DNA of 64,000 nt, taken from NCBI GenBank assembly GCA_030141605.1, contig JAQGDQ010000446.1, forward strand, positions 130,148-194,147. Direction: 5' to 3'. This document shows, piece by piece, positions 29,480 through 53,690 of this stretch. The notes beneath the pieces are model-generated. The model had not been told where the DNA came from. It saw only the letters and a list, made by a program, of their open reading frames with translations, and searched no databases. Made by a program: the position numbers and the translations under genes. Position 1 is the stretch's first letter, and every line of letters begins with the position of its first letter. This DNA is from Tubiluchus corallicola (lineage: Eukaryota; Animalia; Priapulida).

Positions 29480-31924
29480 TGACAGAGAGAGAGACAGAGA
29501 GAGAGAGAGAGGAGGGAGAGAAGAGAGAGGGAGGGAGGGAGAGAGAGGGGGAAAGAGAGAGCAAGATGGAGAGAAGAGAGAGGGAGGGAGAGAGAGAAAG
29601 AGAGAGAGGGGGAAAAGAAAGCAAGAGAGAGAGTGAGTGAGTGAGTAAGTGAGAGAGGGAAAGAGGAAGAGAGAGATTACTCTATTCGGCATTTAAGTAC
29701 ATACATACTTAGCAGAAACAACAGAATATTCATCAGTTCACTCATGCCGAGAACTTGCATTGCTAGTCGAGTTTTAACAGTGAAGAGACAAAATAATTCA
29801 ACACTTAACCGACTTGTAAACCTTTCATGATTGAAACCGGAAGTCAAACACAGTCGATACGATAAAAAAAACTGAAACACGTACAACTCAGAAACATGAA
29901 TTTACCTAAACCTTGAGGCACTACACTTCAGACCACAAACGCCACTCATATGTGAAGGAAGCCGTATGCTTCCAGCTATATCTCCTCCGACACCAAGTGG
30001 ACTTCCCTTCCTCTTCAGCAGACACGTTTCCCCTCCAGAAGATCCTCCGGGAACTCGCCCCTTTTGGACCGGGTTCTCCGTTGCACCGAATATTGGGTTA
30101 CTGCAGCCATAGCTAAAATTAAAGCGGACCCAAATTTAAACTGTAGATCAAAACAATCTACTCTCTAAAACATTGAAAAGAAAATATACTATTATGTTCA
30201 AGAATGACTTTTTAGTGCATTTCAAGGTGTTTGTATATAGCAGTTAAAAAACAATAATTTGAAATGAGGAATGATCAGAAAACCTGTATTGTTTTCCTGT
30301 TGAAAAATTCCACAGGAACAATTAGGAGCACTGCAAACAGAATGTAACGTTGTGGCCAATACTGTAATCTGACAAATTATCAAAGCCACATCACTTAAAT
30401 GAGCCAGTGAACTAGTAGAGGTGGCACGCCACATTTGGATCTAAAAACAGCCTCCATTTGTGAGAAAAACGTCCAGAATCAGTAAGACGAATGAAACGGC
30501 GAAAAGCGAGTATCGAACCCAACGACCACCCACCCGTTTATTATACACATTAGCTGTAATCACTCACTTTTTCACCTCACCCTAAATCTACTCGCCAAAG
30601 AAGCGCTGTTTAGCGATACCAGCCATTTACAGAATATATCAATCATACTTTTGTGTAAACTCATCATGCTGATGCCATATCTAAGTACTGAATTATCATT
30701 ACCTGAGTAATGTTTGAGGAACATTCGTCTTACAGAACGGAATCCCACCTTTTGCTTTAATGACTTTAACCACAATGGCGTCTTCGTCTTTTGGTTTGGC
30801 ATACTTTGCCTGTCCCAATGTGCTCGCATAGCCCTGCAACAAACAATAACAACTTTTTATGTTGTCTCTCCAGCCTCTCTACATGTTGTGGAGATCGCTG
30901 TAATCTATTAGAATTCGTAGAACGTTGCAGAATGTTCCGTTGGCATGACCGCCTTATCGTCTGGAATGTTCTGGAACATTAGTTCTGGAAGATTCTTCAG
31001 CGCGCTATATAAGGCAAAGCAGGCCGCCGACACGGAAGCGCATAGAGCACGAAGATCTCGCACGGACGTATACTTACACATTCTCTTGTATACTTGTATT
31101 TTCAGATACACTTTAACGTTTTCCAGATTTTCACGTTTACAGTAATCGTTTCTCGTTCCCTCATACTTTTGTGTTGTAGAATTCCCGCTAAATAAACTAG
31201 TTTTATTTGACGGCGTGTTTTCTGGTTTTCTCTACGAGCCTTCCGAGAGAAACAAAACACAACACTACATTAAACGTCAACGTGAGCTGACTTGATTCTT
31301 ACTTACCAGTTGCTTCACGGCCTTTTGTTGATTATGACTACAGACGTCCTTTTGTGTTGTCTAATGATACAAGGTTAATAATTTAAAGCTTAAAAAGCCT
31401 CAAGTTTGACTCAATGTGCATTTGTACAGTTTTGCATGTCGAGTAAAAAATGTAGCTACCAGTTGAAGTTGTAAATGCTCCTAACTAACTTAACTACTTT
31501 TAAAACTTGCCTTCACAACCATCTCTACCAAAACTCGTAATGTTTTTTTTACAATTTTGTACTTTCTGTTAATTGCTATTGTCATACGTACGTAAAGTTT
31601 AGTACTAACGTTTACACTTACATTACTGTACTGTATGATATTCTGCGGTATCTTGTCCCCTTCGTACTGGGATCACTTTAAGTAATTTAAATTATTGTAT
31701 TTTGTTGTAATTTTGGTTTCCAGTCGAGCTACAATTACCCGTAAATAATAATAAAATAATAATAATAATATCTCATTTTTTAGAGTCATAGATAAAATAA
31801 CATCAGATCAGTGTATATATGTGCATGTATATGCATGTATGTATGTGTCTATGTATATGTGCATAATAAAGCGCATGTATCCAATTAGGTATATAATATA
31901 TGCATATGTATGTATATGTACATG

Positions 31925-34900: not shown

Positions 34901-37900
34901 TACGTTTTCGCGTTCAGGGCTCCACTCCTGATTTGGAAGGTTTACTCCTCTACACATGGCCGTTGGTTCACTTGACCTCCTCCGCCCTCTAGTCGTTGGC
35001 TGCTTGTGCAGCTCCTCCGCCTAGTGTCGAGATACAGTGTGGGCATCCGGCAAGCCTACATTGCCTGGTATTCCTAGGTGGTCACCCATCCAAGTACTAA
35101 CCAAGTACTCTCCTGTGATACCCTGTGATAAAGCCTCTAGTTCTACACGTCTGCACAAATGCTGCCTTCATAACGTACCTTAGTCCAATAGGCATACAAG
35201 ACTTCCAGGGCGGTGTATTTGCCACTTCTAATCGCTTCTGCTAACGAGCAAGCGGACAGTTCAACAATTGCTCTGCGTTGTTCCGTCATTCCCTAGAATT
35301 TAAAGGAAAAGGCTAAAAGCAAAAGTAACGTGTTAGTTAGCAGATGAAAAAACAATAAACAAAAGTAATGCATTAGCTAACAGAAGAAACAAAACAAAAG
35401 TAATGCAAAACAAAAGGTATAAACAGCAGTAAGCGACTCATTCTCAAAGTTTTGTTCGATACGCAGGCTAGCAATATCTCTCTGTGCATGTGTGACATTT
35501 AAATGTGCAGCGATTTGACATGCAAAGAATAAGACATCAAAATTGCCAGCAATAGCTACTGGCAGTCACACCTGGAATAAGACAGAAACTTTGAATGAGA
35601 TCCAGACCACAACTTTGAATGTCCACTGACCACTAGATGGCTGTGTAGGACTGAAACCTATCTCGTCGTCAAAGATAGTCTATGAAAAGTGACACTGTAC
35701 CACAGAGAGGTATCAAATGCCTCGACGAGGTAAATATCCATAAAACACAATCTAAAATGACTGCTGAACCAAACCATCACCCACCCATTAACTGACCAGA
35801 CTAAATATTGCTTAATCTCAGATGCTCAGCAATCAGCAAATGGCCATATGTCTTAATCACCTAAAAACTCATCTTGCCCATTTTTCAAAACCGGCTATTA
35901 CTTCAAAGTTGCCACAAACTCTCGCTTTTATTCTGACGCTTTTACTGTTTGTCCCACAATGGAATATTCGTTTCCTGTTTAGTTAACCCTTTCAGTCCCA
36001 AATTATTTTTTTATAAGAAAAACTTTTTTGGCTTGATAATTTTGTTCAGTATGTCCATCTTGTTTACACATAATAATTATTTTTTTCTACCTGTGCCCGC
36101 GTGCTAAATATAGCCTGTATCTCACGGGATACATTGGGATTCAATGGAAGCATAAAATGTGCTTCATTTTGCAACTGCTGATAATTTTTTAAAGTATTTA
36201 AGACATTTAGTACGCACGCTATACTGATCTGTACAAAGTCGTCTCTAAAGTACTGAACCTTGCACAGATTTTTATGCTATGTAGATTTTCTAGTTTGCCA
36301 TTTTATCACCATTCTTATTCTATTGTTATTTGCTTAAGTCAAAATAACTATTAACAGATCAAATAACTGTCAGTTTTAAACTTTTATTAATTTTAAAAGC
36401 AGAAAATATTCTCGTATCCCACGGGATACAACGGGTATGAAAGGGTTAAAATTAGATATTACTTAACAGAAGCCACGAACTTCGTGTTTTTCTTCGCATT
36501 TTCTTCTTATTCTTTTACCGCTTGACGGTGAATGACACGTTTCTTTTCTGTCATAATTTCTGCAAAATGTTTTTACAAATCCATGAAATACTATGACTGA
36601 GAAACAAAAAACTAACTTAAGCACACACCTCGGGAAGTTTCTCTCTTAGTACTTGAATGCTTCTCTCACGCTTCGCTCGGAGTTCTGCTGCAGCTTCCCG
36701 ATGTTGCGCTCTGATCTCCTTATTACGCCTCCACTAAAATAAACCACAATTAATATAATCTTAGTATAAAAAAATTAATACAAACACTAATAGTAAATGC
36801 ATTGTGTGCAGATTTTATTAGAATACTGTTGAAGTTGGAATTGTACATTTTTAATTTGGTGCTGCCATCTATGAACTAATCCTGTAACATTTTACCAGCT
36901 AAACTTACCCCCAGTATAATTGTACGGTCCAGTGAATGCATATTCACTGGTTCTCTCCTTATTTTAAAGTAATGGTTTTTGTGAAGCCTGTGCAAGTCTG
37001 CATAGGTCACCTATACCTATATATACTGACTGGTTTTACTTTCTAGTCACTCTAACTCTCAGTGTTCAGTGCAGGACTCTCTCTCTCACTCACAGTGTTC
37101 AGTGCAGCAGTCATGCTAGTCATGTGTCTTTAGTTTAATAAACACTTTTCTGTTTTGTTCAGGGGAAATATGTATTACAGATTTTTTATTCTTGTGCTAC
37201 AAGTGAGTGATCTACAACTTCAAATATGACTTTCACAAATACGGTTTATTTTCAAACACATCAAGGTTTTAAACAAAAAAATTACAATTTGCCGAAAAGT
37301 TCTATTTTGCTGTGAAGCAAATTAAATTGCACAAATTACCAAGTAGAAGAGACCCGGGTAAAGTGGATCACTTAAGGGTTTTCGCTCATAGAGTTCAAGA
37401 CGTTTGATCTGTAACAATCAATTACATGCCCTATTCTTCCGTAGGAAACTCTGCTATATTCTTGTGGTAAAAACTTATAATTACTATTACTCGTTTAACA
37501 GATAATTCCAAAATACGAAACCAAAATTTCTAGGGCAAAGTGGATCTTTTACGGGCATAGTGGATCATACCGGAGCGGTTGAGCTCAACATAACTAACAA
37601 TATCTTTTAAATGGATTTTGTCTATTTTGCAAAAGTAAATTGATATGAAGCAGCAATGAACCATCCATCATATGTAAAAACAGTAGCGAATAAATCTGCA
37701 CTAAGTGGAATTTATCATTATGATCTATAAAAATGAAAAATCGAAAGAAAGTGGGTGAAAAACTTATTTTTTTGTGTACCGCACTTAGACAAACTTTGCA
37801 AAGGTCGAGGTCGTTCATGCAGAGTACACAGTAGATGATGACGTAACATCACACAGTGCGTAGGCTGCGACGCCTTACGGAAAAAAGAGCAAACACATTT

Positions 37901-40428
37901 GATCCGCTTTGCCCAGTGATCCACTTTACCCGGGGTCTCCCCTAAGTCTTTATCCTGAATGTGATTTCTCATGCAAATTCAGATTCATTTTCAAAAATAA
38001 AATGCCTTTGCTAGTTCATAATGTTGGGGTGCCTACGTATGATGTAATGTTGAATTCCCAGTGCACTCATAGTATGCTGGGCAAAAACTTTAAGTAATTA
38101 CCACAGAAGTTAATTACTTTATTGCAGTTATAAAGTTTTTTGTTTATTTTGATGGCACACTAACACACAGGACATATAGTATTCAATTGTTGCTTGTTAG
38201 CTCTTGATGTGTACAATATTGTTTAATTTCAGTTCATTGCTAGACATTTGTGTACACTGTATGTTGTCATTAAATAGCGCGTTCAGACGTAGAGTTTTCT
38301 CGTAACTACTCTCTGAGAGCAAACTCGCAGGTGTGAACGGCTTGGCAACTTCTCTTGCAACAAGTTGCGAGAGAACTCTCTATGTCTGAATGCGCCATTT
38401 AATGACAACATACAGTGTACACAAGGGGTGTGCAAATTGCAGCCCGCAGACCACTTGCGGCCCGCCGAGAGAATTTGTCAGCCTAATGAAAGTGCGGCCC
38501 GGGCGATTAATTGAGTGTATCCAGTTGAAGTCCGTGCCACGATCCCAAAGATAGTGTGGGTAGTTTTTTCTACTAGATCGGATGGCATTAACCCTTACAA
38601 GACGGTTGTAGCTTAATGTCACTGTACTACACAGACTGTGTGATACACATTACTAATATGCATTATAATGAAATTACCACTATCTGTCCTGAAAGTAGAA
38701 TTATATGGTTTGTAATATAAATTCTAATAACTTCTAAAATAGTTTCTTGAGTGTAGTAGTAATGATGTACGCAGGTCGGATGCAAAAAAAATCATTATTA
38801 GGCCTTTCTGTACTTGGCTTCTTGATCAAACTGCCTGTGGCCCGCAGGAATTGCGGGAAAGTTTAATGTGGCCTGCCTAGTCAGATAATTTGCACACCCC
38901 TGGTGTACACAGATGTCTAACAATAAACTGAAATTTAACATTAAAAGCTAACAAGCAACTATATGTTTGTGGGAATTACTACAGTGCCTACATATCTTAA
39001 GCAAGCATAAGAACAGCCAGAAGAATGTCAGCTTGGAATAAATAAAAATGTAAAAAATAGTAATAATATTAAATTTAGATAAGTGATTTGTAAACAAACA
39101 ATTTAATGAAATCGTACAAACTATAATTTTACTAAATAACCTTACATTTCTCATACTGCACAGCTAAAGAAGAATTAGATCAAGTCAAATAACCCTTAAT
39201 TTTAGTAGAAATATTAGCTGAATAAATGCCAAATTTTATAAACTCAAAATAAGGTTTAAGTTAAACTGTGATAATCACACTAATTACAATGATAACTATA
39301 TAGTAACCGATTATGCCTATTAAAAAACAGGAGGCAACGAATATTACGAATTTTGATTATTGCAGCGATATAGAAGATGCCAAAATTGCAACACTTAATG
39401 TACCAGGACTTAAACAAGTACTATGTGAAATCATTTTGAAATACTTTATTTTCAATTCAATTTAATTCATTTTTTTTCAATTTTTCAATTTATTTATCTC
39501 TTTATAGTATTACAATAAAACATGATTTTTAAAAGAATCTTTAATAAGTTTTGAAAAATGGTTAAAATGTATAGATAGATCTAGAACTAGAGAAAGGATA
39601 GCGAAAAGACTATAAAGTCACCTAGTCTGCTATCCTTTACCGAATATAGATAAAAAGATTTTTTAGACACTGGTGGGCATTGATGTTATCAGTTTAATTT
39701 AGGAAACATTAGTAATTTTTAAAAGTATGACATTTTCTATGTAATCCAGAGAAAAGAATATACATCTAGTTTAATTAGCGGGCAACAAAATAAGGTCAAC
39801 CTTGATTAAACTAAAAATTGCATTTAGATTTTATGTGAAATACAGGTCAAAATTGTTATGAAATGATAAAAACACTTTGGGTTAATAATGCAATTAATTA
39901 ACAACAGGAGTTAAATACATTTTGATTTGAGTTCAACTTCATTATTTCTAGGCTTATTGATTAAGAACAAATCTACTGACTTGGACAATAATACTAAATA
40001 ATATAATTCTCAATATACTGATAAGACAAACATTTAGCTATACTGGTTTTTTAGTAATTTTATAAAGGAGAAGTAAAACTTGTGCAATCTGTGAACAACA
40101 CCTAAATCATTACTCATAAAATAGTACTGCAGTATGACTTTAATAATTACTCTACTGTAAAGAAGAGATGAAAGACAGAGTATTTCCTGATATTTAGGAT
40201 AATATCTGTAATGGATTAATTAATTTGTAGAGTTATAAGTATAAAAATATGTATCATTTTTGAGAGCTATAGAAAGTATTTTCAGCTATTTCTAAAAACC
40301 AAACTGGCAATACTTTTCATGTGATGTTAAAGAAAACCTACCTTTATAAGGAAAACAGTAAAAAGAATAATCATTCCACTCCCAGCTGCAGACTGCAGAA
40401 AGAACCAAGACGGAAGCTGATTCAACAT
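7298..40428 (-). CDS. FAAH: Fatty-acid amide hydrolase-like amidase (amidase signature family), 16 coding exons, 576 aa
   Basis: GT-AG exon chain with all phases compatible, 1731 nt including stop: 40428-40342, 36733-36629, 35292-35179, 33994-33938, 32716-32624, 30833-30703, 30112-29906, 29298-29258, 23591-23467, 20728-20603, 19189-19095, 17600-17501, 14914-14831, 12711-12600, 10669-10530, 7411-7298. Motifs: N-terminal TM helix, GVPVSIKD (catalytic Lys), KTNVPQ, PGGSSGGE, GDIAGSIRLP (nucleophile Ser), YNLLDFPAGVVPVT, GLPIGVQ..WREELCLRVMKEVE. Confidence 0.93.
7503..8397. mobile_element. Foldback-type element with subterminal 21/42-bp tandem repeats
   Basis: Ends ggttctacaggttttacacatcaaatgtaga / tctacatttgacgtgtaaaacctataaac are inverted. 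A 42-bp array (7771-8377, ~14 copies) is mirrored by inverted copies at 7520-7730. Confidence 0.65.
8585..9100. mobile_element. hAT-like MITE
   Basis: TIR CAG[A/T]GGCGTAGC at both ends; degenerate 8-bp flanks. Confidence 0.6.
9903..10247 (-). mobile_element. Tc1/mariner (Tigger-like) MITE family B, copy 1
   Basis: TIR CAGTCRACCCTCGTTAAACCGGA; TA TSD. Confidence 0.9.
10336..10489. repeat. 15-bp minisatellite, ~10 copies
   Basis: (actaacatcacagtc)n. Confidence 0.95.
10530..10669 (-). CDS. FAAH: FAAH-like exon 15
   Basis: actcag|(S)AAAYTILYNLLDFPAGVVPVTVETAKDQENLKSYPQKDPIDWKIKM|GTAAGC. Confidence 0.95.
11201..11711 (+). mobile_element. Old dispersed family E, possibly Kolobok-like; related copies near 30120-30200, 32820-33370, 41748-42120 and 59560-60140
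   Basis: TTAA|AGGAAAAC...GTTTCCCT|TTAA; shared motif cttaaactgtaggtc..ctctttaaaatattg in all copies. Confidence 0.55.
12600..12711 (-). CDS. FAAH: FAAH-like exon 14
   Basis: tgttag|SYKSEFIKAWKAANLDALICPPCVFPAPPPEYPQHLS|GTGAGT, ends in phase 1. Confidence 0.92.
12979..13302 (+). mobile_element. Tigger-like MITE family B, copy 2
   Basis: Same TIR and body; TA TSD. Confidence 0.9.
13560..13861. repeat. (ACTC)n/(ACTT)n microsatellite
   Basis: Directly visible. Confidence 0.95.
14335..14720. repeat. ~46-bp minisatellite, same family as 19571-19977
   Basis: cttatactcacttgtactcacactcacctatactcacttatgctta units. Confidence 0.85.
14831..14914 (-). CDS. FAAH: FAAH-like exon 13
   Basis: ttccag|WPRVGELLACFRGPNDNCHLRLIYSECE|GTTAGT. 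Confidence 0.85.
15045..15897. repeat. 29-bp minisatellite, ~29 copies
   Basis: (cacttgacagtaacccacaaagtagttca)n. Confidence 0.95.
16107..16573 (+). mobile_element. hAT-type MITE family A, copy 2
   Basis: Same TIR; perfect 8-bp TSD tgttagct. Confidence 0.92.
17037..17406 (-). mobile_element. 5'-truncated RTE-clade LINE fragment
   Basis: MLRWMVGITRRDKIRN..RLRWYGHLKRR..GNRRRGRPKLRW is the typical RTE ORF C-terminus; (GAA)n tail; 19-bp TSD aaaaaataaag[t/c]atagtct (17018-17036 / 17407-17425). Confidence 0.9.
17501..17600 (-). CDS. FAAH: FAAH-like exon 12
   Basis: ttgcag|LNEEVDPTLKVFHKLVSLPFPVKKAMSRLIGLV|GTAAGT. Confidence 0.9.
18267..18827 (+). mobile_element. 5S rRNA-derived SINE (SINE3), near full length
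   Basis: Near-complete 5S rRNA head ~18271-18386 (GCGGCCATATCACGTTGAAAACACC...GGTGCTGTAGGCTT) with no T-run terminator, ~430-bp body, (AAC)n tail. 14-bp TSD atagtgattctctt (18253-18266) / atagcgattctctt (18828-18841). Confidence 0.9.
19095..19189 (-). CDS. FAAH: FAAH-like exon 11
   Basis: tttcag|LVPFTVPQGCRAFSLAASCIALDGGRALSDG(W)|GTCGGT; weak donor, but required by the phase of exon 12. Confidence 0.88.
19305..19435. repeat. 19-bp minisatellite, ~6-7 copies
   Basis: (tttcggtacagtcgctacg)n. Confidence 0.9.
19571..19977. repeat. ~46-bp minisatellite
   Basis: Same unit as 14335-14720. Confidence 0.9.
20052..20551 (+). mobile_element. hAT-type MITE family A, copy 3
   Basis: Same body; 8-bp TSD acttaaaa. 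Confidence 0.92.
20603..20728 (-). CDS. FAAH: FAAH-like exon 10
   Basis: tttcag|VYNSKEKLTIGYYDYNDYITVTPGLKRAVRLTKEALESQGHQ|GTTAGT. Confidence 0.94.
20820..21568 (+). repeat. 38-bp minisatellite, left arm of an inverted pair (~19 copies)
   Basis: (gctagcacagaaatgatgcggtatccaaggaagccgtt)n. Confidence 0.95.
22054..23113 (-). repeat. 38-bp minisatellite, right arm of an inverted pair (~28 copies)
   Basis: Reverse-complement unit aacggcttccttggataccgcatcatttctgtgctagc. Confidence 0.95.
23467..23591 (-). CDS. FAAH: FAAH-like exon 9
   Basis: tttcag|(V)KVAYGYMATNVEDIALGMRACCSDETFERDAKVAPIEFKSD|GTGAGT. Confidence 0.92.
24068..24449 (+). mobile_element. piggyBac-type MITE family C, copy 1
   Basis: TTAA|CCCTTTCA...TGAAAGGG|TTAA. 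Confidence 0.88.
24734..25219 (+). mobile_element. hAT-type MITE family A, copy 4
   Basis: Intact TIRs, but the flanks gcctatgt / acttaaga do not match. Confidence 0.9.
25511..25969 (-). mobile_element. piggyBac-type MITE family C, copy 2
   Basis: TTAA TSD, CCCTTTCA termini; inverted relative to copy 1. Confidence 0.88.
26196..26588 (+). mobile_element. Solo LTR family D, copy 1
   Basis: TG...CA termini, 5-bp TSD agctt, internal AATAAA. Confidence 0.8.
26742..27698 (-). CDS. Intronless class A (rhodopsin-like) orphan GPCR, ~318 aa, nested in FAAH intron 8
   Basis: Seven hydrophobic segments; TM1 CN, TM2 NLAVAD, TM3 IDRYIAV..PLYY, TM4 W, ECL2 Cys, TM7 NTLVNVVIY plus helix 8 KEFRIAV. First in-frame ATG at 27698. 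The ORF-track start (27797) is a TTG overlapping an acceptor-like tttcttgcag| at 27792. Confidence 0.9.
   Translation of the reverse strand: MPPLSTAAAPKLNSSQAPRHCEHRDLDMSVTVLYSYVLVVGVLAVVCNMIIITVICKVKILHHTYYYLICNLAVADMLIGWTSVVYCIMVWLEGDCYVSWCIIVKGLSDSMIGASMYTFLAVSIDRYIAVMRPLYYEKIMTLTSTRVILIATWIFSVLPFLIGRSIQAANGGFEGGSFCFDLSGTIDLIMTLLYLILMPSVVFMNTKVILEVIRQQKATKSNTPSVSIHNSVRTRFRIAKIVFYLTGFFYLMTLSHVILLLLYVVSPEHKKFLRKVLPFSWALLVTNTLVNVVIYSVKLKEFRIAVKELFYRKVAPEM
28537..28873. repeat. Tandem duplication, two copies of ~150-180 bp
   Basis: aaactagtaattaaaac..gcagcaagatgagcataagcagacatgagcttaag..acaacttacatgctactcta occurs twice. Confidence 0.85.
29258..29298 (-). CDS. FAAH: FAAH-like exon 8
   Basis: tttcag|HEGCMNSVPGVQV|GTAAGT; 41 nt, phase 2 to 1, restores the frame between exons 7 and 9. 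Confidence 0.88.
29400..29660. repeat. (GA)n-rich microsatellite
   Basis: Directly visible. Confidence 0.93.
29906..30112 (-). CDS. FAAH: FAAH-like exon 7 (amidase signature, both catalytic Ser)
   Basis: YGCSNPIFGATENPVQKGRVPGGSSGGETCLLKRKGSPLGVGGDIAGSIRLPSHMSGVCGLKCSASRF(S)|GTAAAT. Confidence 0.96.
30703..30833 (-). CDS. FAAH: FAAH-like exon 6
   Basis: ttgcag|GYASTLGQAKYAKPKDEDAIVVKVIKAKGGIPFCKTNVPQTLL(S)|GTAATG, ends in phase 2. Confidence 0.95.
30908..31585 (-). CDS. Putative small spliced gene or pseudogene in FAAH intron 5, with an F-box-like segment
   Basis: Phase-0 chain 31585-31511 (ATG..AAG|GCAAGT), 31360-31307 (attag|..CTG|GTAAGT), 31231-30908 (cgtag|..TAA) gives 150 aa, including LKIQVYKRMCKYTSVRDLRALCASVSAACFAL. 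Confidence 0.3.
32624..32716 (-). CDS. FAAH: FAAH-like exon 5 (catalytic Lys)
   Basis: tttag|DWAKELDARGPRKDEILFGVPVSIKDNISVT|GTAATG. Confidence 0.95.
33938..33994 (-). CDS. FAAH: FAAH-like exon 4
   Basis: ttgcag|ALEVHEDTNCITDFILEAE|GTATGT. Confidence 0.92.
34190..34520 (+). mobile_element. Tigger-like MITE family B, copy 3
   Basis: Same TIR and body; TA TSD. Confidence 0.9.
34674..35108 (-). mobile_element. Second copy of the 5S-derived SINE, 5'-truncated
   Basis: Reverse complement carries the 3' half of 5S (GGTTAGTACTTGGATGGGTGACC..GTAGGCTT), the same body with internal deletions, and an (AAC)n tail. 11-bp TSD tctcctgtgat (34663-34673 / 35109-35119). Confidence 0.9.
35179..35292 (-). CDS. 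FAAH: FAAH-like exon 3
   Basis: ttctag|GMTEQRRAIVELSACSLAEAIRSGKYTALEVLYAYWTK|GTACGT. Confidence 0.92.
35987..36445 (+). mobile_element. piggyBac-type MITE family C, copy 3
   Basis: TTAA TSD, same body. Confidence 0.88.
36629..36733 (-). CDS. FAAH: FAAH-like exon 2
   Basis: ttttag|WRRNKEIRAQHREAAAELRAKRERSIQVLREKLPE|GTGTGT, phase 0-0. Confidence 0.85.
36827..37237 (+). mobile_element. Solo LTR family D, copy 2
   Basis: TG...CA termini, 5-bp TSD aatac. Confidence 0.8.
37346..37942. mobile_element. TIR element (pogo/Tc1-like MITE)
   Basis: GAGACCCGGGTAAAGTGGATCACT and its reverse complement at the other end; TA flanks. Confidence 0.75.
38423..38902 (-). mobile_element. hAT-type MITE family A, copy 5
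   Basis: Reverse orientation; 8-bp TSD gtgtacac. Confidence 0.92.
40342..40428 (-). CDS. FAAH: FAAH-like exon 1 (start codon, N-terminal membrane anchor)
   Basis: ATG; MLNQLPSWFFLQSAAGSGMIILFTVFLIK; donor AAG|GTAGGT, phase 0. Confidence 0.75.
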
Positions 40429-43400
40429 GATGCAAGTTTTAGCGTATCCAAGCAATTAATGAGCGGCAAATTCTAAAATTAGCAAAAAACTTTGCAAAGA
40501 GCTTGCATTAAACTCAGCAACAGATTATTAATTTCATTTCTATGCAGTTCTGAATTAGCATGCCGGAACCCTCAAAAGCGGGAAAATTCTTAATGCGAAG
40601 AGTTTAGTAGGACTAGGATCAATTTGTGTAATCTCTAAGATAAGACACTAAACAAGCACATACAGTACACCACCCCTCAAGAAAGAGAGTAACCAAGGGT
40701 TTCACAGCAAATGAAACCATATATACAGACACAATTTTCAAGATGGTCGCTCGTCCACTTACTGATCAGACTCAATGTTGCATTTATGATACGTTTTACA
40801 TATTAAAATACTAATTACAGAAGTAATAAGCTTCTTTTATGCAAGCACGCAAAACTGCGGTAACAATGAGATTGAGACAGTGTCCACAAATTTTTTTTAA
40901 CATTTAATGCTCTTTCCACAAATGAAGTTAAACAATGCTGAGGCTGGTTAATAACTGGATAAGCGGCTGCTAGAGAAAAATCGCTTCTGTTCAGCATCGT
41001 TACACTGCTCCTGGCCATGTCTCTCTCTGAGGGAAGATGCAATCTTAGCTAAGACACCTCTACCAGCTCAGGATATTGGTTCCAAAGATTTTTTTACATC
41101 TCATTAAAAACACTAATAAATTTATTATGCACATAAATTTTTCGTAAAAAGCATAAGAGATGTACACTAATCTTAAAAATATCATTGTTCAACTCTCATG
41201 AAGGTAGTTACTATCAGATGATAACATGATCTTTTATAAATAGAAGACAAGACGAATCTGACAGTGTCCACAATATCATGCTGCTGTGGTTTACAGTGTC
41301 TCTATGCACTTTCTACAAAAATCATGGGCCGTGAACAGGCTCAGCGACTATTTATTTTACGGGTTTCCTGTTCAAAAGTAAACAATACAATGGGCAGTTC
41401 CTCGCCTTCTGCGAGATGTGGAGAACCCACAATTCATTTTCTGAAAGGGACTTCGCGGGATCCAGAGGACGGCTATCAGACGGGGTATTAATGCACAGCG
41501 TAACGTTTTGTAATGACCACGCCCCTACAACAACTCTGAAATTGTATTCATATTTTCACTGAAGTTCCTAAAAATTGTTCCATAAATACTTAAGATAACT
41601 TAACAACAACCTTCGAACTTTGCACCAAGCGGTCAGTCACTATTTAGTGGTGGCAATACGGGAATGCTTATTTTTTTCTTTTTTACAGATCGCCCCAAAT
41701 AAGACCAACTTCCACTCTTGGTAAGCCGGGTCGCCGAACTCGTTTAAAGCAAAACCGGGTACAATCTTAATAAGGTAAGTCAAAACAACCTACTCTTTAA
41801 AATATTGAAAGGAAACGTGCTATTTTTTTCAAAAATGACCACACAAACACAATTTCATGTTCACGCCACTAGTTCTTCACTGTTACATGAATTTCGGCAC
41901 TGGCAGCTGCATTTCAGAAGCGCATTTACCTCTCAATTCAGATATGTTAGTTTGTGATGAACTGCACACATTCGACAGCTCATGTGTGAGCACAGTTGTA
42001 ACATGTGCAAAATACTCATAGAATATTTTTGGTGTTGGAAATTAAATTATATTAGTTGGTGGTGTCATCAATTGCTGGGCTCACCCGCCCGTTAAATACG
42101 ATTTTAATCCATTATTTAATTATGTTGTCGGTGACGCGCAACAACTCGTTTAGACAATATTTTAAATATTGCAAACGATTAATGTCAATTTCTATCCTTT
42201 ATTTGAACAGGAAACCGTGGAGTGCTCTAATAAGGATAAAGGCTCTGTGTCTACAATAGATGTTTAGAGATACGGAGGAAGGAGAAGAAGGTAGTACATG
42301 CAAACTCATCCTGTCTTCCTTTAAGATTTAATTAATCTATTGTCCAGAAAAATGGAAATCAAATATTTAATTTGCCAAAGTATGCCTTATTTTTTCGCTC
42401 GTAAATTCGACGAATTTTTCAACGGTGTTAAGTATAGGCCTACCTCAGAAAGCAAGGAAAAATACTTTCAATAACAGTTCATTTCAATAAACTTTGCATC
42501 AGGCTATCTCAAGACTTTTAACAAGAAAAACAAAACATTACGCATCACTTTTAGCATTGGCAAACTGTTACCCTGATGGTGACATAAACTAATATGACTA
42601 CGTTTGTTCTGTACGTAATAACAGAGCTTAATATAACACCACAGACTATATAAATAATTATGCTGATGATGGTTCCATTATGCAACGGCCAAGGCAAGTC
42701 TTTGGTACAAGCACAGATTTAGATGCGCGTGCGCAGAGGGAGTATGCTAACCCAACAATACTGTCAATACAAGTCATTTTCATCAAATTTAAATGATAAG
42801 ACGATTACTGGAATAACCAACGGCCAAAGATCTTATACGATAAAATTTGTGACGCTATTATTGGGAATTTGAATTCTTATCTGGCATTCTCACTGAATCG
42901 CCAATTAAAGTAGGACCTGACCATATAAATTTTGTTGTCGCCATCCAAGACACAGTGACACAATTGTTTCTCTCCTTTTCGTTACATTAGTTTTGTTCCC
43001 TTATTGAATCGTGGGATCCATGCTTGTAGCTGTTTTTGCATGCACTTGATAATTATACTATGCTCTATTCTGCACGGGTTCTTTATTTTACATTGTGTGC
43101 ATTCCCTTTGTGATTATGTATGTTATATATAATTATAATAATCGAAAGACAAATATATAATCGTTATTAACCAATGAAATCGATATTTATAAGTATAACG
43201 CAACATGCGAATAAAATTCACAACGATTATTAGAGGCAAAAGCAGACAGTGCAGCCTAAAATCTGCTGTGCACCGATTTTGAATTCAACAAAAAAAAACG
43301 CAACCTGTAATTCAAACTGTACACAATATGCACATGCAATTAAGAACACGTACAGGTAAGTAAAATTTGTGCTGGAATATATGATGTTATATATAAATTT

Positions 43401-44185
43401 ATGTAGGTGTGCCGATAATAAGCCAAAATATTATGCAACTAAAATTCCCAGACGTATGTTGACATTAATTTTGTGGCCTACGTATTAAAGCAATTTAACT
43501 TGTAACTCATATTAATTACCATAGTCTATAAGCTTTCTACATGAGAAACATTCAAAGAAACGTGTTACATATTAGAATAGTGGATTAGTACAATGGTTAT
43601 ATACGTTGCAGAATGTGGAGTATTAAATTTAATTAAAATTTATTCATTCTGTTAATGTGCTAACAAAAACGAGAAATCTTCACTTGAATAAATGCCTTCG
43701 GGTTTTATTGAAAGAGTGTCATTTTTCAAGGAACTTAAACATTAATGATCATCTTTTCCTCACTCCCTCGATTTCCTTTGATGTGTTCTCCTTCGTTTTC
43801 TCCTTTTTTCTTTCTACTTTCTTTTCACTTTCCTTCCTCTCCAGCGATCTTTCAGTGACAATTTTTATTCTTGCGGACACGTACGACACCGTGCGTGGTA
43901 CAGGCCATAGTAATTACATTCCTCGTGTGGTAACCCAGATTAAATTTGATAAGCTTACACGTATTATTATTATAATTTTACTTGTAATCGCTACATCGAA
44001 TTTTTAAATTAGCATAATTAGTCGTAGGTTTTCACACATCGCATTTTTTAATGGTTTTACTCTTATGTATGTCAAATACAAAAGAATTTTTATTTACCAG
44101 ATTTAGTTAGTGCTAGACAACTTATAGGCCTTATGTATAGGTCTTGAACGTGCAGCGTCATTAGATCAAATTTTCATGCATAACT

Positions 44186-44570
<385 letters not shown>

Positions 44571-44914
44571 ATTATTATTATGTCTGCGTTCTTAATACAA
44601 TGCCACTTGAAGACGATAACGACGATTTATCTGAAAAGTAAGTCGTAAAAATGACAAGATAAGGTAGTAAAACCAGAATGTCAAAATTAAACTAGGCCGC
44701 TTTTGTATTACAAAGAACCGTCATATTACTTCAGTTTCGACCGTCGTATTACAAGTCGGTCAAGCGTTAAATAATCTAATAAAATTGAAATCATTTCACT
44801 GTCGAGACGCGACTTTCACTGCAAGTTGTTGACATGGGCGAACTAACGAAAACCCTGCTGCTTTTTGCTACGGTAACTATGAAACTTTATGTATATACGC
44901 TTGTATTTTGAAAC

Positions 44915-44990
44915 TTCTCTCTCTTTCTCTCTCGCTTTCCCTCTCTTTCTCTCTCTCTGAACTTTCTCTTTCTCTTTCTCTCTCTCTCTA

Positions 44991-45028
<38 letters not shown>

Positions 45029-45062
45029 TCTCTCAACTTTCTCTCTCTCTCTCTCCTCTCTG

Positions 45063-45132
<70 letters not shown>
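44915..45132. repeat. (CT)n microsatellite upstream of the six-repeat gene
   Basis: Directly visible. Confidence 0.97.
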
Positions 45133-45136
<4 letters not shown>

Positions 45137-45303
45137 AAACATGAATATTTGTAAAAATTTGAATGGTAATTGTTAGATTGAAAATTGACATTGTATAATA
45201 ATCATTTTAAAAAATTCATTTTTATTTCGTAATTATAATAATCAAAATAAGAAATTCAACGTGGAAAGTACAACAGAGCAGGAAAAAAGAACACTCAGAG
45301 AAA

Positions 45304-45342
45304 GATAACTATCCAGCAGTTTTGTTCTTGACTGCCCTTTTG
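45304..45342 (+). CDS. Probable signal-peptide exon of the six-repeat protein (no ATG; GC donor)
   Basis: GAT AAC TAT CCA GCA GTT TTG TTC TTG ACT GCC CTT TTG reads (D)NYPAVLFLTALL. It joins ALIGIVTG across a 60-nt GC..AG interval that contains in-frame stops. Confidence 0.5.
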
Positions 45343-45402
45343 GCAATAATATAGCTATAGCCCTCGTTTGTAGAGCTGCAAATTTCCTCATAATTTTTCC
45401 AG

Positions 45403-45945
45403 GCGTTAATTGGCATTGTGACGGGAGAAGGTTACGGATTTGTTGATGGCTACGGCATAGGAAACAACGGGCCACCAGCTAGAGATTTTTCCAAAGGCTT
45501 ATATGCAGAACGGGGCGGATATTCGCGTGACGGTTACGGAATTGGGAACAACGGGCCGCCTACTAAGGACTTTTCTAAAACGCTCCGGTTTCGTTCGGGA
45601 CGTGGGCGTGATCAGGGATACGGCATAGGCATCAACGGGCCACCCACCCAAAACTTTTCCAAAAATCTCTTCGTTTCCCAAGGCGGTTTCCGGGGAGATG
45701 GCTACGGTATTGGCACCAATGGACCACCTACAAAAAACTTCTCCAAAAAGCTGGGATTTCGATCTGGAAGTGGTTATGGTAATGACGGCTACGGATTAGG
45801 AAACAATGGGCCTCCCAATAAAAATTTTAACAAAAACCTGTTCGTTTCGCAAGGTGGATTTCAAAGAGACGGATACGGCCTGGGTACCAATGGGCCTCCC
45901 AATAAAGGCTTTGCAAACAAGTTGGGGCCCAATAGGCGAATATAG
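45403..45945 (+). CDS. Main exon of a Gly/Tyr/Arg-rich, probably secreted protein with six ~28-aa repeats (DGYG[IL]GxNGPP)
   Basis: Acceptor tttttccag|45403, in frame with the ORF, gives ALIGIVTG-EGYGFV followed by six repeats. Amino acids are conserved between repeats while third codon positions differ extensively. TAG at 45943-45945, AATAAA near 46073. Confidence 0.85.
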   Translation, partial: ALIGIVTGEGYGFVDGYGIGNNGPPARDFSKGLYAERGGYSRDGYGIGNNGPPTKDFSKTLRFRSGRGRDQGYGIGINGPPTQNFSKNLFVSQGGFRGDGYGIGTNGPPTKNFSKKLGFRSGSGYGNDGYGLGNNGPPNKNFNKNLFVSQGGFQRDGYGLGTNGPPNKGFANKLGPNRRI

Positions 45946-47432
45946 GTAATTATAATAGATAAGTTATACAAACGCCTTACTTAAGCCAATGCCATGACTG
46001 CAGTTACATGTTTCTGAAATGTGTATTATATGTCCCTACAGGAGCACAGCAGCATAATTATTGTAAATTCTAAATAAACTTTCTTCTATTTAACTTCTTT
46101 TGTTTCTAGCTTTAATTAGGTCCCAAATGTCAATTGTGTCATAGTGACAGTGTGCATTGTCTAGCTGTTAATGGAACGTAACTGCTAGTTTTTATGGTTA
46201 TGACAGGCTGTCTAATGCTTATACGTGTATCATAAAGGTCAATGTATTCTTTGTTTATGATCTGATCAGGTCACCTTCTTAATAGTTACTTCAACGTTTC
46301 ACAAAACTCTTGTTTGTAGTTTCCGAAATGCTAGAAAACGAAACCCGGGGTGAGTCTTCAGCGACCAAACATGCAAAAGAGTCAACTTCCGGGAATGAAA
46401 ATGTTTTTGTTAACAGTAGCGACGGTGGGTTCGGTTTACAATCATTATCAGGCTGAATATAAAAGCAAATCTTCACTAACATTATCACAAAATATTAACA
46501 AAAGTCTTAAAGAAGGACAGGATGATATTTCATATACTACCCCATTTTCAAGCCCGTTAAAAAGTACGCATTTTAACACAACTGATACTGCAAAAGCGTT
46601 TCTGATTATTAGATAATAGACTAAAAACTTTAGCATTAAATAATTTTTAGCAGCAGAAATATTCCACGAGCGTGTTGCACATGTTTGTGAAACAGAATAT
46701 TGAAACACAGTGCTACTGTAAGATATTCAGTGTGTTGTACTTGAAACTAGGCAAGTTTCAAGATAAAAATTCAAATTTCAAATTTACCGCCGTGCTCACG
46801 CATTAGCTGTCGAACGTGTGTAAGCTTGGGTTGGGTTTTGCTTTAAAAAACTCTGGAGAAATAACGAAGTCAGTGCTAGATACAATGGTAGATTAAATCA
46901 GGTACAGCAGGTATAGCTGTTAAGCAAAGAAATCGTGTAAAACATGGAAAAATTGATTTCTCTATTTAATAGTTACTGTGCTATACCGAATTTCATGCAG
47001 TACTGATATACTTATTTCTGTAATGTTTTAGGCATTTTGTAACTTAACTTTTTGTCATAATGTTACTGAAGATTGCCTTTCGCTCTTATTTTCAAAATTG
47101 CAACCAAAACGAATGACGCCGCTGTTAATGTCGTCAATAATTGTTAATGACGATAATGTTAATTGATAATGTTTTGTATGGTGATTTCATGATTTTATGT
47201 AAAACTAGTGACAGGAGTGAACTATAAGCATTGTTGAGCCTGACGAGTAGCAGGATGGATGATTGCTGGGAAGTTTTGAGAAATTTCGTTTGTCATACTC
47301 ATCGAAACGTGGTTAAGACACCTCGACGGGTTTTTAATATAATCCTAGAGGATTTTCATTTAATAATGGGATAATTATTGAGTGCTAAAACCCTGTTTGC
47401 AGATTGCTACATTGTATAAAGTACGTACTGAC

Positions 47433-47797
47433 TAGGGGTGAGCATTCTCTACCAAAAAGCGAATTAGAATCGAACCGGATTTGTGACTTTCGAATTCGAA
47501 TTGAGATTGAACGATTTTCGAACAAGTTTTCGAACCACCAGTAAAAATTAGTCTTACAAAGATCATGTGTATCACTAGATTTTGTTCTGCAATAAAACGA
47601 CTAGTAATTTGTTTAAAATTGTGCACAGAAATCACTGCTAAATTACGCTAATTGCATGATGTTTCAATCGTTATAGTGATCAGGAACATATGTGATTGAA
47701 GTGCTGAATTATTCGAATCTATAGTTTTGGATTCGAATCGAGTTCGAACTATAAAAACTCGTTCGAATCGAACTCGAACGTTCGATGCTCACCCCTA
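47433..47797. mobile_element. hAT MITE with TTCGAA subterminal repeats
   Basis: TIR TAGGGGTGAGCAT; perfect 8-bp TSD gtactgac. Confidence 0.88.
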
Positions 47798-50110: not shown

Positions 50111-52090
50111 GGATCTACACTGTGATCAAAGGAATAGGATCTACACTGTGATCAAAGGAATAGGATCTGCACTGTGATCAAAGGAATAGGATCTACACTG
50201 TGATCAAAGGAATAGGACCTACACTGTGATCAAAGGAATAGGATCTGCACTGTGAACAAAGGAATAGGATCTACACTGTGATCAAAGGAATAGCATCTGC
50301 ACTGTGATCAAAGGAATAGGATCTACACTGTGATCAAAGGAATAGGATCTACACTGTGGTGAAAGGAATAGGATCTGCACTGTGATCAAAGGAAAAGGAT
50401 CTACACTGTGAACAAAGGAATAGGATCTACACTGTGATCAAAGGAATAGGGTCTACACTGTGATCAAAGGAATAGGATCTACACTGTGATCAAAGGAATA
50501 GGACCTACACTGTGATCAAAGGAATAGGATCTACACTGTGATCAAGAGAATAGGACCTACACCGTGATCAAAGGCATAGGATCTACACTGTGATCAAAGG
50601 CATAGGACCTACACTGTGATCAAAGGAATGGGATCTACACTGTGAACAAAGGAATAGGATCTACACTGTGATCAAAGGAAAAGGATCTACACTGTGAACA
50701 AAGGAATAGGATCTACACTGTGATCAAAGACATAGGACCTACACTGTGAACAAAGGAGTAGGACCTACACTGTGATCAAAGGAATAGGATCTACACTGTG
50801 ATCAAAGGAATAGGATCTACACTGTGATCAAAGGAATAGGATCTACACTGTGATCAAAGGAATAGGATCTACACTGTGATCAAAGGAATAGGACCTATAT
50901 TGCGATCAAAGGAATAGGATCTACACTGTGATCAAAGGAATAGGACCTACACTGTGAACAAAGGAATAGGACCTACACTGTGATCAAAGGAATAGGACCT
51001 ATATTGCGATCAAAGGAATAGGACCTATATTGCGATCAAAGGAATAGGACCTACACTGTGATCAAAGGAATAGGACCTACACTGTGATCAAGAGAATAGG
51101 ATCTACACTGTGATCAAAGGAATAGGACCTATATTGCGATCAAAGGAATAGGATCTACACTGTGATCAAAGGAATAGGACCTATATTGCGATCAAAGGAA
51201 TAGGACCTACACTGTGAACAAAGGAATAGGATCTACACTGTGATCAAAGGAATAGGATCTACACTGTGATCAAAGGAATAGGACCTACACTGTGAACAAA
51301 GGAATAGGACCTACACTGTGATCAAAGGAATAGGACCTACACTGTGATCAAAGGAATAGGACCTACACTGTGATCAAAGGAATAGGATCTACACTGTGAT
51401 CAAAGGAATAGGACCTACACTGTGATCAAAGGAATAGGACCTACACTGTGAACAAAGGCATAGGATCTACACTGTGATCAAAGGAATAAGACCTACACTG
51501 TGATCAAAGGAATAGGATCTACACTGTGAACAAAGGAATAGGACCTACACTGTGATCAAAGGAATAGGATCTACACTGTGATCAAAGGAATAGGACCTAT
51601 ATTGCGATCAAAGGAATAGGACCTACACTGTGATCAAGAGAAAAGGACCTACACTGTGATCAAAGGAATAGGACCTACACTGTGATCAAAGGAATAGGAC
51701 CTATATTGCGATCAAAGGAATAGGACCTATATTGCGATCAAAGGAATAGGACCTACACTGTGATCAAAGGAATAGGACCTACACTGTGATCAAGAGAATA
51801 GGATCTACACTGTGATCAAAGGAATAGGACCTATATTGCGATCAAAGGAATAGGATCTACACTGTGATCAAAGGAATAGGACCTATATTGCGATCAAAGG
51901 AATAGGACCTACACTGTGAACAAAGGAATAGGATCTACACTGTGATCAAAGGAATAGGACCTACACTGTGATCAAAGGAATAGGACCTACACTGTGAACA
52001 AAGGAATAGGACCTACACTGTGATCAAAGGAATAGGACCTACACTGTGATCAAAGGAATAGGACCTACACTGTGATCAAAGGAATAGGAC
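50111..52090. repeat. 26-bp minisatellite, ~76 copies
   Basis: (ggatctacactgtgatcaaaggaata)n with a recurrent variant ggacctatattgcgatc. Confidence 0.96.
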
Positions 52091-53114: not shown

Positions 53115-53258
53115 TTAATGAAATTACCAGCTAAGTGGTGCTTTTTGTGGTGCTTAACACATTGCATTAGTTTCCAAACTCCACATTAGAAGACGGACAC
53201 CCAATAAGACGCATTGAGACTAAAAGAAATAAGTAAAACTCGAATTTCATACTGCTTC

Positions 53259-53690
53259 TTACATGTGTTCTATGTTGTTTGTTAACTACATTAACTTACA
53301 CGTGTTCTATGTTGTTTGTTAACTACATTAACTTACACGTGTTCTATGTTGTTTGTTAACTACATTAACTTACATGTGTTCTATGTTGTTTGTTAACTAC
53401 ATTAACTCACATGTGTTCTATGTTGTTTGTTAACTACATTAACTTACATGTGTTCTATGTTGTTTGTTAACTACATTAACTTACATGTGTTCTATGTTGT
53501 TTGTTAACTACATTAACTTACATGTGTTCTATGTTGTTTGTTAACTACATTAACTCACATGTGTTCTATGTTGCTTGTTAACTACATTAACTTACATGTG
53601 TTCTATGTTGTTTGTTAACTACATTAACTTACATGTGTTCTATGTTGTTTGTTAACTACATTAACTACACATGTGTTCTATGTTGTTAAC
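53259..53690. repeat. 37-bp minisatellite, ~11 copies
   Basis: (ttacatgtgttctatgttgtttgttaactacattaac)n. Confidence 0.95.

What the first reader, a model, noticed from the sequence alone, without database searches (positions are those of the whole stretch)
45304..45945. Unrecognised secreted protein or multi-core peptide precursor with six DGYG[IL]GxNGPP repeats
Seen: after a signal-peptide-like N-terminus (NYPAVLFLTALL|ALIGIVTG) come six units: DGYGIGNNGPPARDFSKGLYAERGGYSR / DGYGIGNNGPPTKDFSKTLRFRSGRGRD / QGYGIGINGPPTQNFSKNLFVSQGGFRG / DGYGIGTNGPPTKNFSKKLGFRSGSGYGN / DGYGLGNNGPPNKNFNKNLFVSQGGFQR / DGYGLGTNGPPNKGFANKLGPNRRI. Each has a near-invariant 11-mer, a semi-conserved FxKxL, and a variable linker alternating between an A type (..GGF/Y) and a B type (FRSG.G), i.e. 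a duplicated ~56-aa dimer. Third codon positions differ extensively between units (GATGGCTACGGCATAGGA vs GACGGTTACGGAATTGGG vs GACGGATACGGCCTGGGT) while the residues stay fixed, so this is selected protein sequence, not a DNA satellite. It is ~25% Gly, has 23 K+R versus 10 D+E, and no Cys, His or Trp. No regular KR/RR or G-K/R amidation sites separate the units, so it is not a classical neuropeptide precursor. Inference, three options: (a) a multi-core ribosomal peptide precursor releasing GYG[IL]GxNGPP-type linear or cyclic peptides; (b) a Tyr/DOPA-crosslinked or coacervating adhesive, cuticle or egg-case protein; (c) a cationic Gly-rich defence protein. I do not recognise the family.
Basis: partly seen in the sequence, partly recalled or inferred. 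Interest (0 to 1): 0.85.

Follow-up and report, generated by a model that had tools for sequence, protein, structure and literature searches.

The report
Orphan secreted 28-residue repeat protein
An animal gene encodes six tandem 28-amino-acid repeats rich in glycine and tyrosine, with no relative found in the databases searched; the protein is predicted to be secreted and floppy, and it likely stays uncut as a cross-linked building block of the cuticle or another outer coat rather than being chopped into peptides.

Summary
The repeats are real and coding. Six units lie at a 28/28/28/29/28-residue period. Silent sites are near saturation while the core stays fixed (dN/dS about 0.07).

A likely first exon at 44834-44872 gives a 193-aa product with a predicted 21-residue signal. 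No RNA confirms this.

I found no relative in protein, Pfam, PDB or metagenome searches, and this scan had not seen the sequence before. A neighbouring gene places the host loosely among moulting animals; unchecked notes say priapulid.

The peptide-precursor idea is weak. No dibasic or amidation site lies at any unit boundary, cores are neutral or acidic, and linkers are conserved too. The chain is predicted disordered, basic, with evenly spaced Tyr/Phe.

Best reading (0.55): an uncut matrix protein that condenses and is tyrosine-cross-linked. It works like nematode epicuticlins (same gene plan) but is not one (no GYR or YGD motif). One low-confidence model suggests a beta-solenoid. New sequence, familiar design, function untested.

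The parts
44767..44796 (+). Possible core promoter: TATA-like TTAAATA at 44767 and initiator-like TCATTT at 44791 (inferred, weak)
   Evidence: Motif scan; consensus recalled; no transcript
44834..44872 (+). Likely coding exon 1: 13 codons, first part of the predicted signal peptide, purine at -3 and G at +4, GT donor at 44873, phase 0
   Evidence: One of 2 among 143 ATG..GT phase-0 candidates in 35401-45402 with both a fair donor and a signal-like join; the other lies in an interspersed repeat; donor at 97th percentile of 3532 GT sites; GC 0.49 like exon 2. Caveat: a 69% copy lies at 29710-29819
44873..45402 (+).
   Evidence: Acceptor at 45402 at 99.3rd percentile of AG sites; repeat; not shown by RNA
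45403..45426 (+). Start of exon 2: end of the predicted signal peptide, with small residues at -3 and -1 before the predicted cut
   Evidence: Translation, hydropathy; SignalP not available
45427..45444 (+). Six-residue mature leader with a degenerate GYG
45445..45528 (+). Repeat unit 1 (28 aa, A-type linker)
45529..45612 (+). Repeat unit 2 (28 aa, B-type linker)
45613..45696 (+). Repeat unit 3 (28 aa, A-type; begins with Q, carries an NFS sequon)
45697..45783 (+). Repeat unit 4 (29 aa, B-type; NFS sequon, internal KK)
45784..45867 (+). Repeat unit 5 (28 aa, A-type)
45868..45945 (+). Repeat unit 6 (25 aa, truncated linker) and stop codon
46073..46078 (+). Polyadenylation signal AATAAA, the only one in 45946-46400, followed by a T-rich tract

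Best explanation
The gene encodes six 28-residue Gly/Asn/aromatic/Lys-Arg repeats kept under purifying selection; the product is predicted to be secreted and disordered, and it likely works uncut as a matrix protein of the cuticle or another outer secretion (adhesive, egg coat), where it would first condense and then be locked by tyrosine cross-links. Shown: the open frame, the repeat, selection on cores and linkers, the composition, and an intact frame in a second DNA data set. Predicted: two exons, a 21-residue signal peptide, an 18-kDa mature chain, disorder. Inferred from known matrix proteins: the evenly spaced Tyr/Phe and the Lys/Arg act as pi and cation-pi stickers that drive salt- or pH-triggered condensation after secretion. 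The one invariant Tyr per unit, exposed between two Gly, is the likely site for peroxidase dityrosine or DOPA/quinone cross-linking. NGPP is likely a turn that limits beta aggregation. The tissue is not known.
For: Selection covers the whole unit: dN/dS is about 0.07 for codons 1-11 and 0.11 for codons 1-19, and the linker of units 3 vs 5 has pN 0.10 at pS 0.74. The period stays 28-29 although A and B linkers have diverged. There is no regular convertase site. Charge-hydropathy falls on the disordered side (0.39 against a boundary of 0.44), and both AlphaFold2 jobs have mean pLDDT 41-44. There are 23 Tyr/Phe in 172 aa, none adjacent, and only 9 of 20000 shuffles are as evenly spaced (partly a by-product of the repeat). 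Tyr3 is invariant in 6 of 6 units. The gene plan matches Ascaris epicuticlin Asu-epic-1: 55-bp exon 1, one repeat exon, 20-aa signal, seven disordered Tyr-motif repeats, dityrosine in the epicuticle (PMC9612446, abstract, passages and section 7). Lys/Tyr cation-pi self-coacervation in seawater-strength salt is described for mussel foot protein-1 (PMC9999432, passage). The neighbouring transporter falls outside the supported mollusc/annelid/deuterostome/cnidarian branch, which fits a cuticle-bearing animal. Run X1 keeps the frame intact, and 2 of 2 coding differences are silent (small n).
Against: There is no expression, localisation or biochemical evidence, and no homologue to compare. No chitin-binding or other cuticle domain was found, and none of the motifs GYR, YGDE, GGYGG, AAP[AV] or YG[AG]P is present. 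Gly+Pro is 32%, below the 45-60% of elastomers (PMC9999432 section 25). There is no His, so it is unlike the hard bulk materials reviewed there. It is basic (pI 10.1), whereas Asu-EPIC-1 is acidic (pI 4.28). It appears single-copy in the window, whereas matrix proteins often form families (own knowledge). Exon 1 has a diverged copy with no second exon, so the exact start is unsure. A near-invariant 11-mer with two prolines is also what a bioactive peptide looks like.
Confidence: 0.55

Rival explanations
1. A cationic Gly/Tyr-rich defence protein, acting whole or as basic fragments cut at single Arg/Lys, that binds and permeabilises or agglutinates microbes.
For: Net charge +13, pI 10.1, 24% Gly, Cys-free, short and likely secreted. 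Each unit outside the core carries +2 to +4. Orphan status is common for defence peptides (own knowledge).
Against: No amphipathic helix above background. The most conserved part, the core, is neutral or -1. Strong purifying selection, no paralogue in the window, and only one X1 contig laid on the gene at 85% likeness; defence genes often expand and diversify (own knowledge).
Confidence: 0.15
2. A multi-core precursor cut at single basic residues to release about six DGYG[IL]GxNGPP-type signalling or modified (cyclic, DOPA, hydroxyproline) peptides.
For: The core is the most conserved part (8 of 11 positions invariant). An Arg lies within two residues before the core at 4 of 5 junctions, and a Lys/Arg two residues after it in 5 of 6 units. 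The Pro-Pro end would resist exopeptidases (own knowledge).
Against: No dibasic or amidation site at any unit boundary. Only 2 of 5 junctions meet the recalled monobasic rule (basic at P4/P6/P8), the unit 4-5 junction has no Arg nearby, and unit 3 lacks the basic residue after the core. Linkers are conserved and of constant length. They are basic rather than acidic. No modifying enzyme lies next to the gene; Pfam found only an amidase, a GPCR and a nucleotide-sugar transporter among 150 frames.
Confidence: 0.13
3. A folded or templated beta-solenoid with one coil of two strands per 28-residue unit, stacking end to end into curli-like functional amyloid fibres in an extracellular layer.
For: The best single-sequence AlphaFold2 model places two strands per unit in regular order. 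That model aligns to beta-helices and curli (top 9h78_B Z 9.2, rmsd 3.5, 160 aligned; CsgA 8enq_A Z 7.2, rmsd 9.4, 111 aligned). The fixed period, an invariant Asn in each unit and GxGxG strands would suit ladders.
Against: That model has mean pLDDT 40.7, with 0 of 172 residues above 70, and the other four models score 27.8-35.3. A second job on units 3-6 gave no strands. Foldseek found 0 matches at E <= 0.001. Z 7-9 is the tool's stated background for repeats. Pro-Pro in every unit and a low hydropathy disfavour a stable core.
Confidence: 0.12
4. A recently silenced relic, or a gene with a different, non-secretory 5' end.
For: The candidate exon 1 has a copy elsewhere that leads nowhere. Chance ATG..GT signal-like exons occur at about 10 donor sites per 128 kb of the window's two strands.
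Against: The frame is intact over 181 codons, with a strong acceptor and a polyadenylation signal. A second DNA data set has no frameshift and two silent changes. Exon 2 itself begins with the tail of a signal peptide.
Confidence: 0.05

Closest known systems
Nematode epicuticlins (Asu-EPIC-1; C. elegans EPIC-1 to -3). PMC9612446: abstract, passages, section 7. PMC10802564: abstract only
   Same: Short signal-peptide exon plus one exon of tandem repeats; 6-7 repeats; predicted disorder; conserved Tyr motifs per repeat; no folded domain; moulting-animal host
   Different: Repeat 28 aa instead of 49-51; no GYR or YGD motif; basic (pI 10.1) instead of acidic (4.28); repeats old and silent-site saturated rather than nearly identical; no sequence similarity found
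Squid suckerins (PMC9999432, passages)
   Same: Modular Gly/Tyr/Leu-rich chain punctuated by Pro
   Different: No Ala/Thr/His beta-sheet module, no His, only one GGY and one GGF type tripeptide per A linker; strongly basic
Resilin and other elastomeric proteins (PMC9999432, passages and section 25)
   Same: Disordered Gly/Pro/Tyr repeats, one conserved Tyr per repeat suited to dityrosine
   Different: No Rebers-Riddiford domain; no YG[AG]P motif; Gly+Pro 32% against 45-60%
Mussel foot proteins MFP-1 and MFP-3 (PMC9999432, passages; MFP-3 composition recalled)
   Same: Small to medium, basic, Tyr- and Lys/Arg-rich, disordered secreted chains able to self-coacervate
   Different: Tyr only 5.8% and Phe more frequent than Tyr; different repeat; no evidence of DOPA
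Multi-copy neuropeptide and antimicrobial precursors (FMRFamide type, apidaecin type, nematode NLP-29 type; all recalled)
   Same: Signal peptide followed by several copies of a conserved short motif
   Different: No dibasic or amidation signals at unit ends; basic, conserved, constant-length linkers

Membership tests
Nematode epicuticlins | Signal peptide followed by tandem repeats in a single exon | tested here: met
   Predicted gene model; signal by hydropathy only, splice not shown by RNA
Nematode epicuticlins | GYR and YGD tyrosine motifs in each repeat (PMC9612446) | tested here: not met
   0 GYR and 0 YGDE in the mature chain; YGD absent from the translation; PF02756 not hit
Nematode epicuticlins | Predicted intrinsic disorder | tested here: met
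   Charge-hydropathy; pLDDT 41-44
Nematode epicuticlins | Located in the insoluble epicuticle, dityrosine-linked | not testable with these tools
   Needs localisation and biochemistry
Arthropod CPR cuticle proteins / resilin | Rebers-Riddiford chitin-binding domain | tested here: not met
   Only a sub-threshold DUF6053 hit in Pfam at E <= 10
Elastomeric proteins (resilin, elastin, abductin) | Gly+Pro 45-60 mol% | tested here: not met
   32% against PMC9999432 section 25
Glycine-rich cuticle proteins (CPG type; motif recalled) | GGYGG / GGxGG repeats | tested here: not met
   0 of either
Suckerins | Alternating Ala/Thr/His module and Gly/Tyr/Leu module separated by Pro | tested here: not met
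   0 His and 3 Ala in 172 aa; definition
Classical neuropeptide precursors | Di- or monobasic convertase sites on both sides of each copy, often with an amidation Gly | tested here: not met
   One internal KK, one terminal RR, no G-K/R-K/R; 2 of 5 junctions fit the recalled monobasic rule
Multi-core ribosomal (RiPP-like) precursors | Dedicated protease or modifying enzyme, and detected products | tested here: inconclusive
   None among the 150 frames scanned in the window; no whole genome held; animal enzymes need not be linked
Cationic amphipathic antimicrobial peptides | Amphipathic helix | tested here: not met
   Moment 0.21-0.49 in 6 of 6 segments, below the 95th percentile 0.61 of shuffles
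Cationic amphipathic antimicrobial peptides | Antimicrobial activity | not testable with these tools
   Needs assay
Curli-like beta-solenoid amyloids | Strand-turn-strand coil per repeat | tested here: inconclusive
   Seen only in one model of pLDDT 40.7, not in a second job; no curlin Pfam hit

The most novel reading that the evidence does not exclude
The protein is an animal curli analogue. Each 28-residue unit folds on secretion into one two-strand beta-solenoid coil, chains stack into amyloid fibres, and the invariant tyrosines then cross-link the fibres into the cuticle or glue of a little-studied moulting-animal phylum (priapulids, if the unchecked notes are right). It would be a sequence-defined amyloid cuticle protein independent of chitin binding.
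Probability: 0.12. Interest if true: 0.7.

Novelty: new variant of a known kind. Interest (0 to 1): 0.32.

Why it matters
My paper searches found no description of priapulid cuticle or adhesive proteins (the library lacks most subscription journals). If the host is a priapulid, a tandem-repeat tyrosine protein with the epicuticlin gene plan but unrelated sequence would suggest that moulting animals repeatedly invent this design. It is also a small, Cys-free, easily expressed candidate for underwater condensation and cross-linking tests. Against that, lineage-specific low-complexity secreted proteins are common in invertebrates, so a specialist would not be very surprised unless it proves to be a fibre-forming solenoid or a source of processed peptides.

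Tried and rejected
Whole genome: none is held, so paralogues could be sought only in the window (none).

RNA: no RNA holder listed. Run X2 (RNA is only a guess) laid nothing on either exon. Neither result bears on expression. Contig depths in X1 differ between the gene and its flanks but cannot rank copy number, so I did not use them.

Homologue searches, all without a relative:
- word search, 100-321 aa only: 0 of 1396 candidates at E <= 0.01; longer and shorter lengths were not run for this protein
- phmmer on 1.84 billion representatives: 2 hits. P0124 is a 29-aa near-perfect repeat inside a bacterial-type permease that matches by period and Gly content, and lacks GYG and NGPP. P0125 is an unrelated low-complexity repeat.
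- Pfam: one sub-threshold DUF6053 hit; NCBIfam 0; PDB sequences 0
- ESM Atlas: best 0.81 and 0.79, arthropod low-complexity clusters, at chance level; no usable named hit
- metagenomes: 233 pattern matches, 0 confirmed
- core DNA pattern: 1 match in metagenomes, 1 in prokaryote genomes, 0 in viruses, each a single non-tandem motif

Structure: Foldseek 0 of 22 rows at E <= 0.001. The complex job with three copies returned no answer.

The candidate at 37170-37202 has better splice scores but lies in an interspersed repeat; the copy at 26196-26589 lacks the ATG and the copy near 61230 is broken there too. The signal-like frame at 46395-46424 has an ATG changed in X1, in a stretch with 10 listed differences, so I treat it as chance.

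A link to a secreted TTLL4-like ligase noted elsewhere in this genome (e1-10608269) was considered and dropped: the mature chain has only 2 Glu and nothing ties the two genes.

Papers: 0 hold both GYGIG and NGPP; 0 hold priapulid + cuticle protein + glycine-rich. Other searches gave context only. For the priapulid neuropeptide preprint 10.1101/2024.07.20.604414 I saw passages only; its sequences are in figures and supplements that I could not see. No supplements were searched.

Full report
Setting. The window is AT-rich animal DNA with many microsatellites. Pfam on 150 selected open frames found an amidase (FAAH-like) gene on the minus strand with exons from about 7.3 to 30.9 kb, a rhodopsin-type GPCR frame nested in it (26742-27815) and a nucleotide-sugar transporter at 58-63 kb. 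The finding lies alone between them. The transporter's listed relatives are about 43-63% identical and come from many animal phyla; no priapulid is named among the 240 rows shown. In a quick tree of 52 rows it falls outside the supported branch (99) of molluscs, annelids, deuterostomes and a coral, among but inside none of the arthropod and nematode groups (careful search unfinished, rows hand-picked). That fits a moulting animal of its own lineage. Earlier scan notes on this genome say priapulid; these are unchecked AI notes that I could not confirm.

The observation. The six units are present as quoted, in one open frame 45394-45945; the other five frames hold 3-12 stops. The GYG motifs are 28, 28, 28, 29 and 28 residues apart. 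Eight of 11 core positions, F15 and L19 are invariant, while most of these columns use 2-4 different codons. Pooled over the 15 (non-independent) pairs, the core has pS 0.63 and pN 0.089, or dN/dS about 0.07; codons 1-19 give about 0.11. Counting minimum changes per column gives 3/2/17 by codon position (p 3e-5), and 0 of 10000 shuffles produce the motif. The core was chosen for its conservation, so low pN is partly circular. The near-saturation of silent sites is the real evidence that the repeats are old and held at the protein level.

The gene model. The acceptor at 45402 is strong (99.3rd percentile). Of 143 ATG..GT phase-0 candidates in the 10 kb upstream, 5 had a fair donor, 18 gave a signal-like join, and 2 had both (my own approximate matrices and thresholds, not SignalP). 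The one at 37170-37202 lies in an interspersed repeat. The one at 44834-44872 has a good start context, GC content like exon 2 (0.49 against 0.29-0.30 in the flanks), and TATA-like and initiator-like motifs 40-65 bases upstream. It gives a 193-aa product with a predicted 21-residue signal, and AATAAA follows at 46073. The same filter passes 12 ATGs at 10 donor sites in the window's 128 kb of both strands, so a hit this close by chance is about 1 in 20. One result cuts against it. The stretch 44749-44870 has a 69% identical copy at 29819-29710 in an amidase intron, also with ATG, hydrophobic codons, GT and a CT microsatellite, but with a shifted phase and no repeat exon behind it. Only one X1 contig laid on the exon-1 region at 80% likeness, so this looks like a local duplication rather than a young high-copy element. 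I put exon 1 at about 70% likely. Secretion itself is more likely than that, because exon 2 begins with the tail of a signal peptide.

Is it alive? Run X1 appears to be genomic DNA. One 963-base contig covers 45140-46093 without gaps and with 7 differences: 2 in the coding exon, both silent, 5 in the 3' flank and 0 in the intron part. This is consistent with a living gene but is weak by number, and X1 may be related to the source sample.

Relatives. I found none (details under Tried and rejected). The tools hold no eukaryote genome collection, so unannotated orthologues in related animals could not be sought. This scan had no look-alike stretch on record. No paper in the library holds both GYGIG and NGPP.

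How it likely works. Three features point to a whole-chain role. First, the linkers are conserved: units 3 and 5 differ at pN 0.10 while pS is 0.74, and A and B linkers share an aromatic-x-x-x-x-Gly-aromatic pattern when B is shifted by one residue (read by eye, MAFFT left them unshifted). Second, the period is nearly constant. Third, there is no uniform cleavage code: one KK inside unit 4, one terminal RR, no amidation signal, and 2 of 5 junctions that fit the recalled monobasic rule. The chain is predicted disordered (AlphaFold2 pLDDT 40.7 and 43.8), basic (+13), and carries 23 evenly spaced Tyr/Phe. By analogy with Lys/Tyr self-coacervation of mussel foot protein-1 and dityrosine cross-linking in resilin (PMC9999432, passages and section 25) and in nematode epicuticle (PMC9612446), I infer secretion, condensation through aromatic and cation-pi contacts, and locking through the invariant GYG tyrosine. 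All of these steps are inferred. C. elegans epicuticlins also act in wound scars (PMC10802564, abstract), so matrix and defence roles need not exclude each other.

Rivals. A defence role stays open on charge alone, but there is no amphipathic helix and the conserved core is not cationic. A peptide precursor stays open because the core is the best-conserved part and single basic residues lie near most cores. A beta-solenoid fibre is suggested by one low-confidence model with two strands per unit, which aligns to beta-helices and curli at background-level Z. A second fold job did not reproduce it.

Comparison and verdict. It works most like an epicuticlin: same gene plan, disorder and tyrosine motifs. 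It fails membership there (no GYR or YGD, different period and charge), and also in CPR/resilin, elastomer, suckerin and classical neuropeptide classes. The sequence is new, the design is familiar, and the function is untested. New variant of a known kind; interest 0.32.

Noticed in passing
window 29710-29819 (-), with CT microsatellite to about 29400: A 69% identical copy of the target gene's presumed promoter, 5' leader and first exon sits in an intron of the amidase gene, in the amidase's sense. It keeps an ATG, hydrophobic codons and a GT but has a shifted phase and no matching second exon. It may be a stranded duplicate or an old low-copy element.
   Followed up: partly
window 26742-27815 (-): An intronless rhodopsin-family GPCR frame (357 aa stop to stop; 7tm_1 E 1.3e-26) is nested inside the amidase gene on the same strand.
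   Followed up: no
window 3-1469 (+): A 489-aa open frame of coiled-coil appearance runs off the window start and has no Pfam hit.
   Followed up: no
window 50111-52090 and 53258-53687: Tandem arrays: a 26-base unit in 76 copies and a 37-base unit in 11.6 copies. A further array near 7760-8397 gives open frames on both strands.
   Followed up: no
window 38217-38943: An interspersed element of about 480-730 bases with terminal inverted matches (38217-38257 against 38903-38943) and five further copies in the window at 72-94% identity, MITE-like.
   Followed up: no
window 46483-46877: A very high-copy genomic repeat begins about 400 bases downstream of the gene; most of the roughly 1900 X1 contigs laid on 45140-47500 fall here or on a second repeat at 47431.
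   Followed up: no
protein P0124 residues 673-875 (unnamed source): A bacterial-type permease carries about seven near-perfect 29-residue repeats inserted in frame; probably a DNA repeat inside a gene, unrelated to this finding.
   Followed up: no
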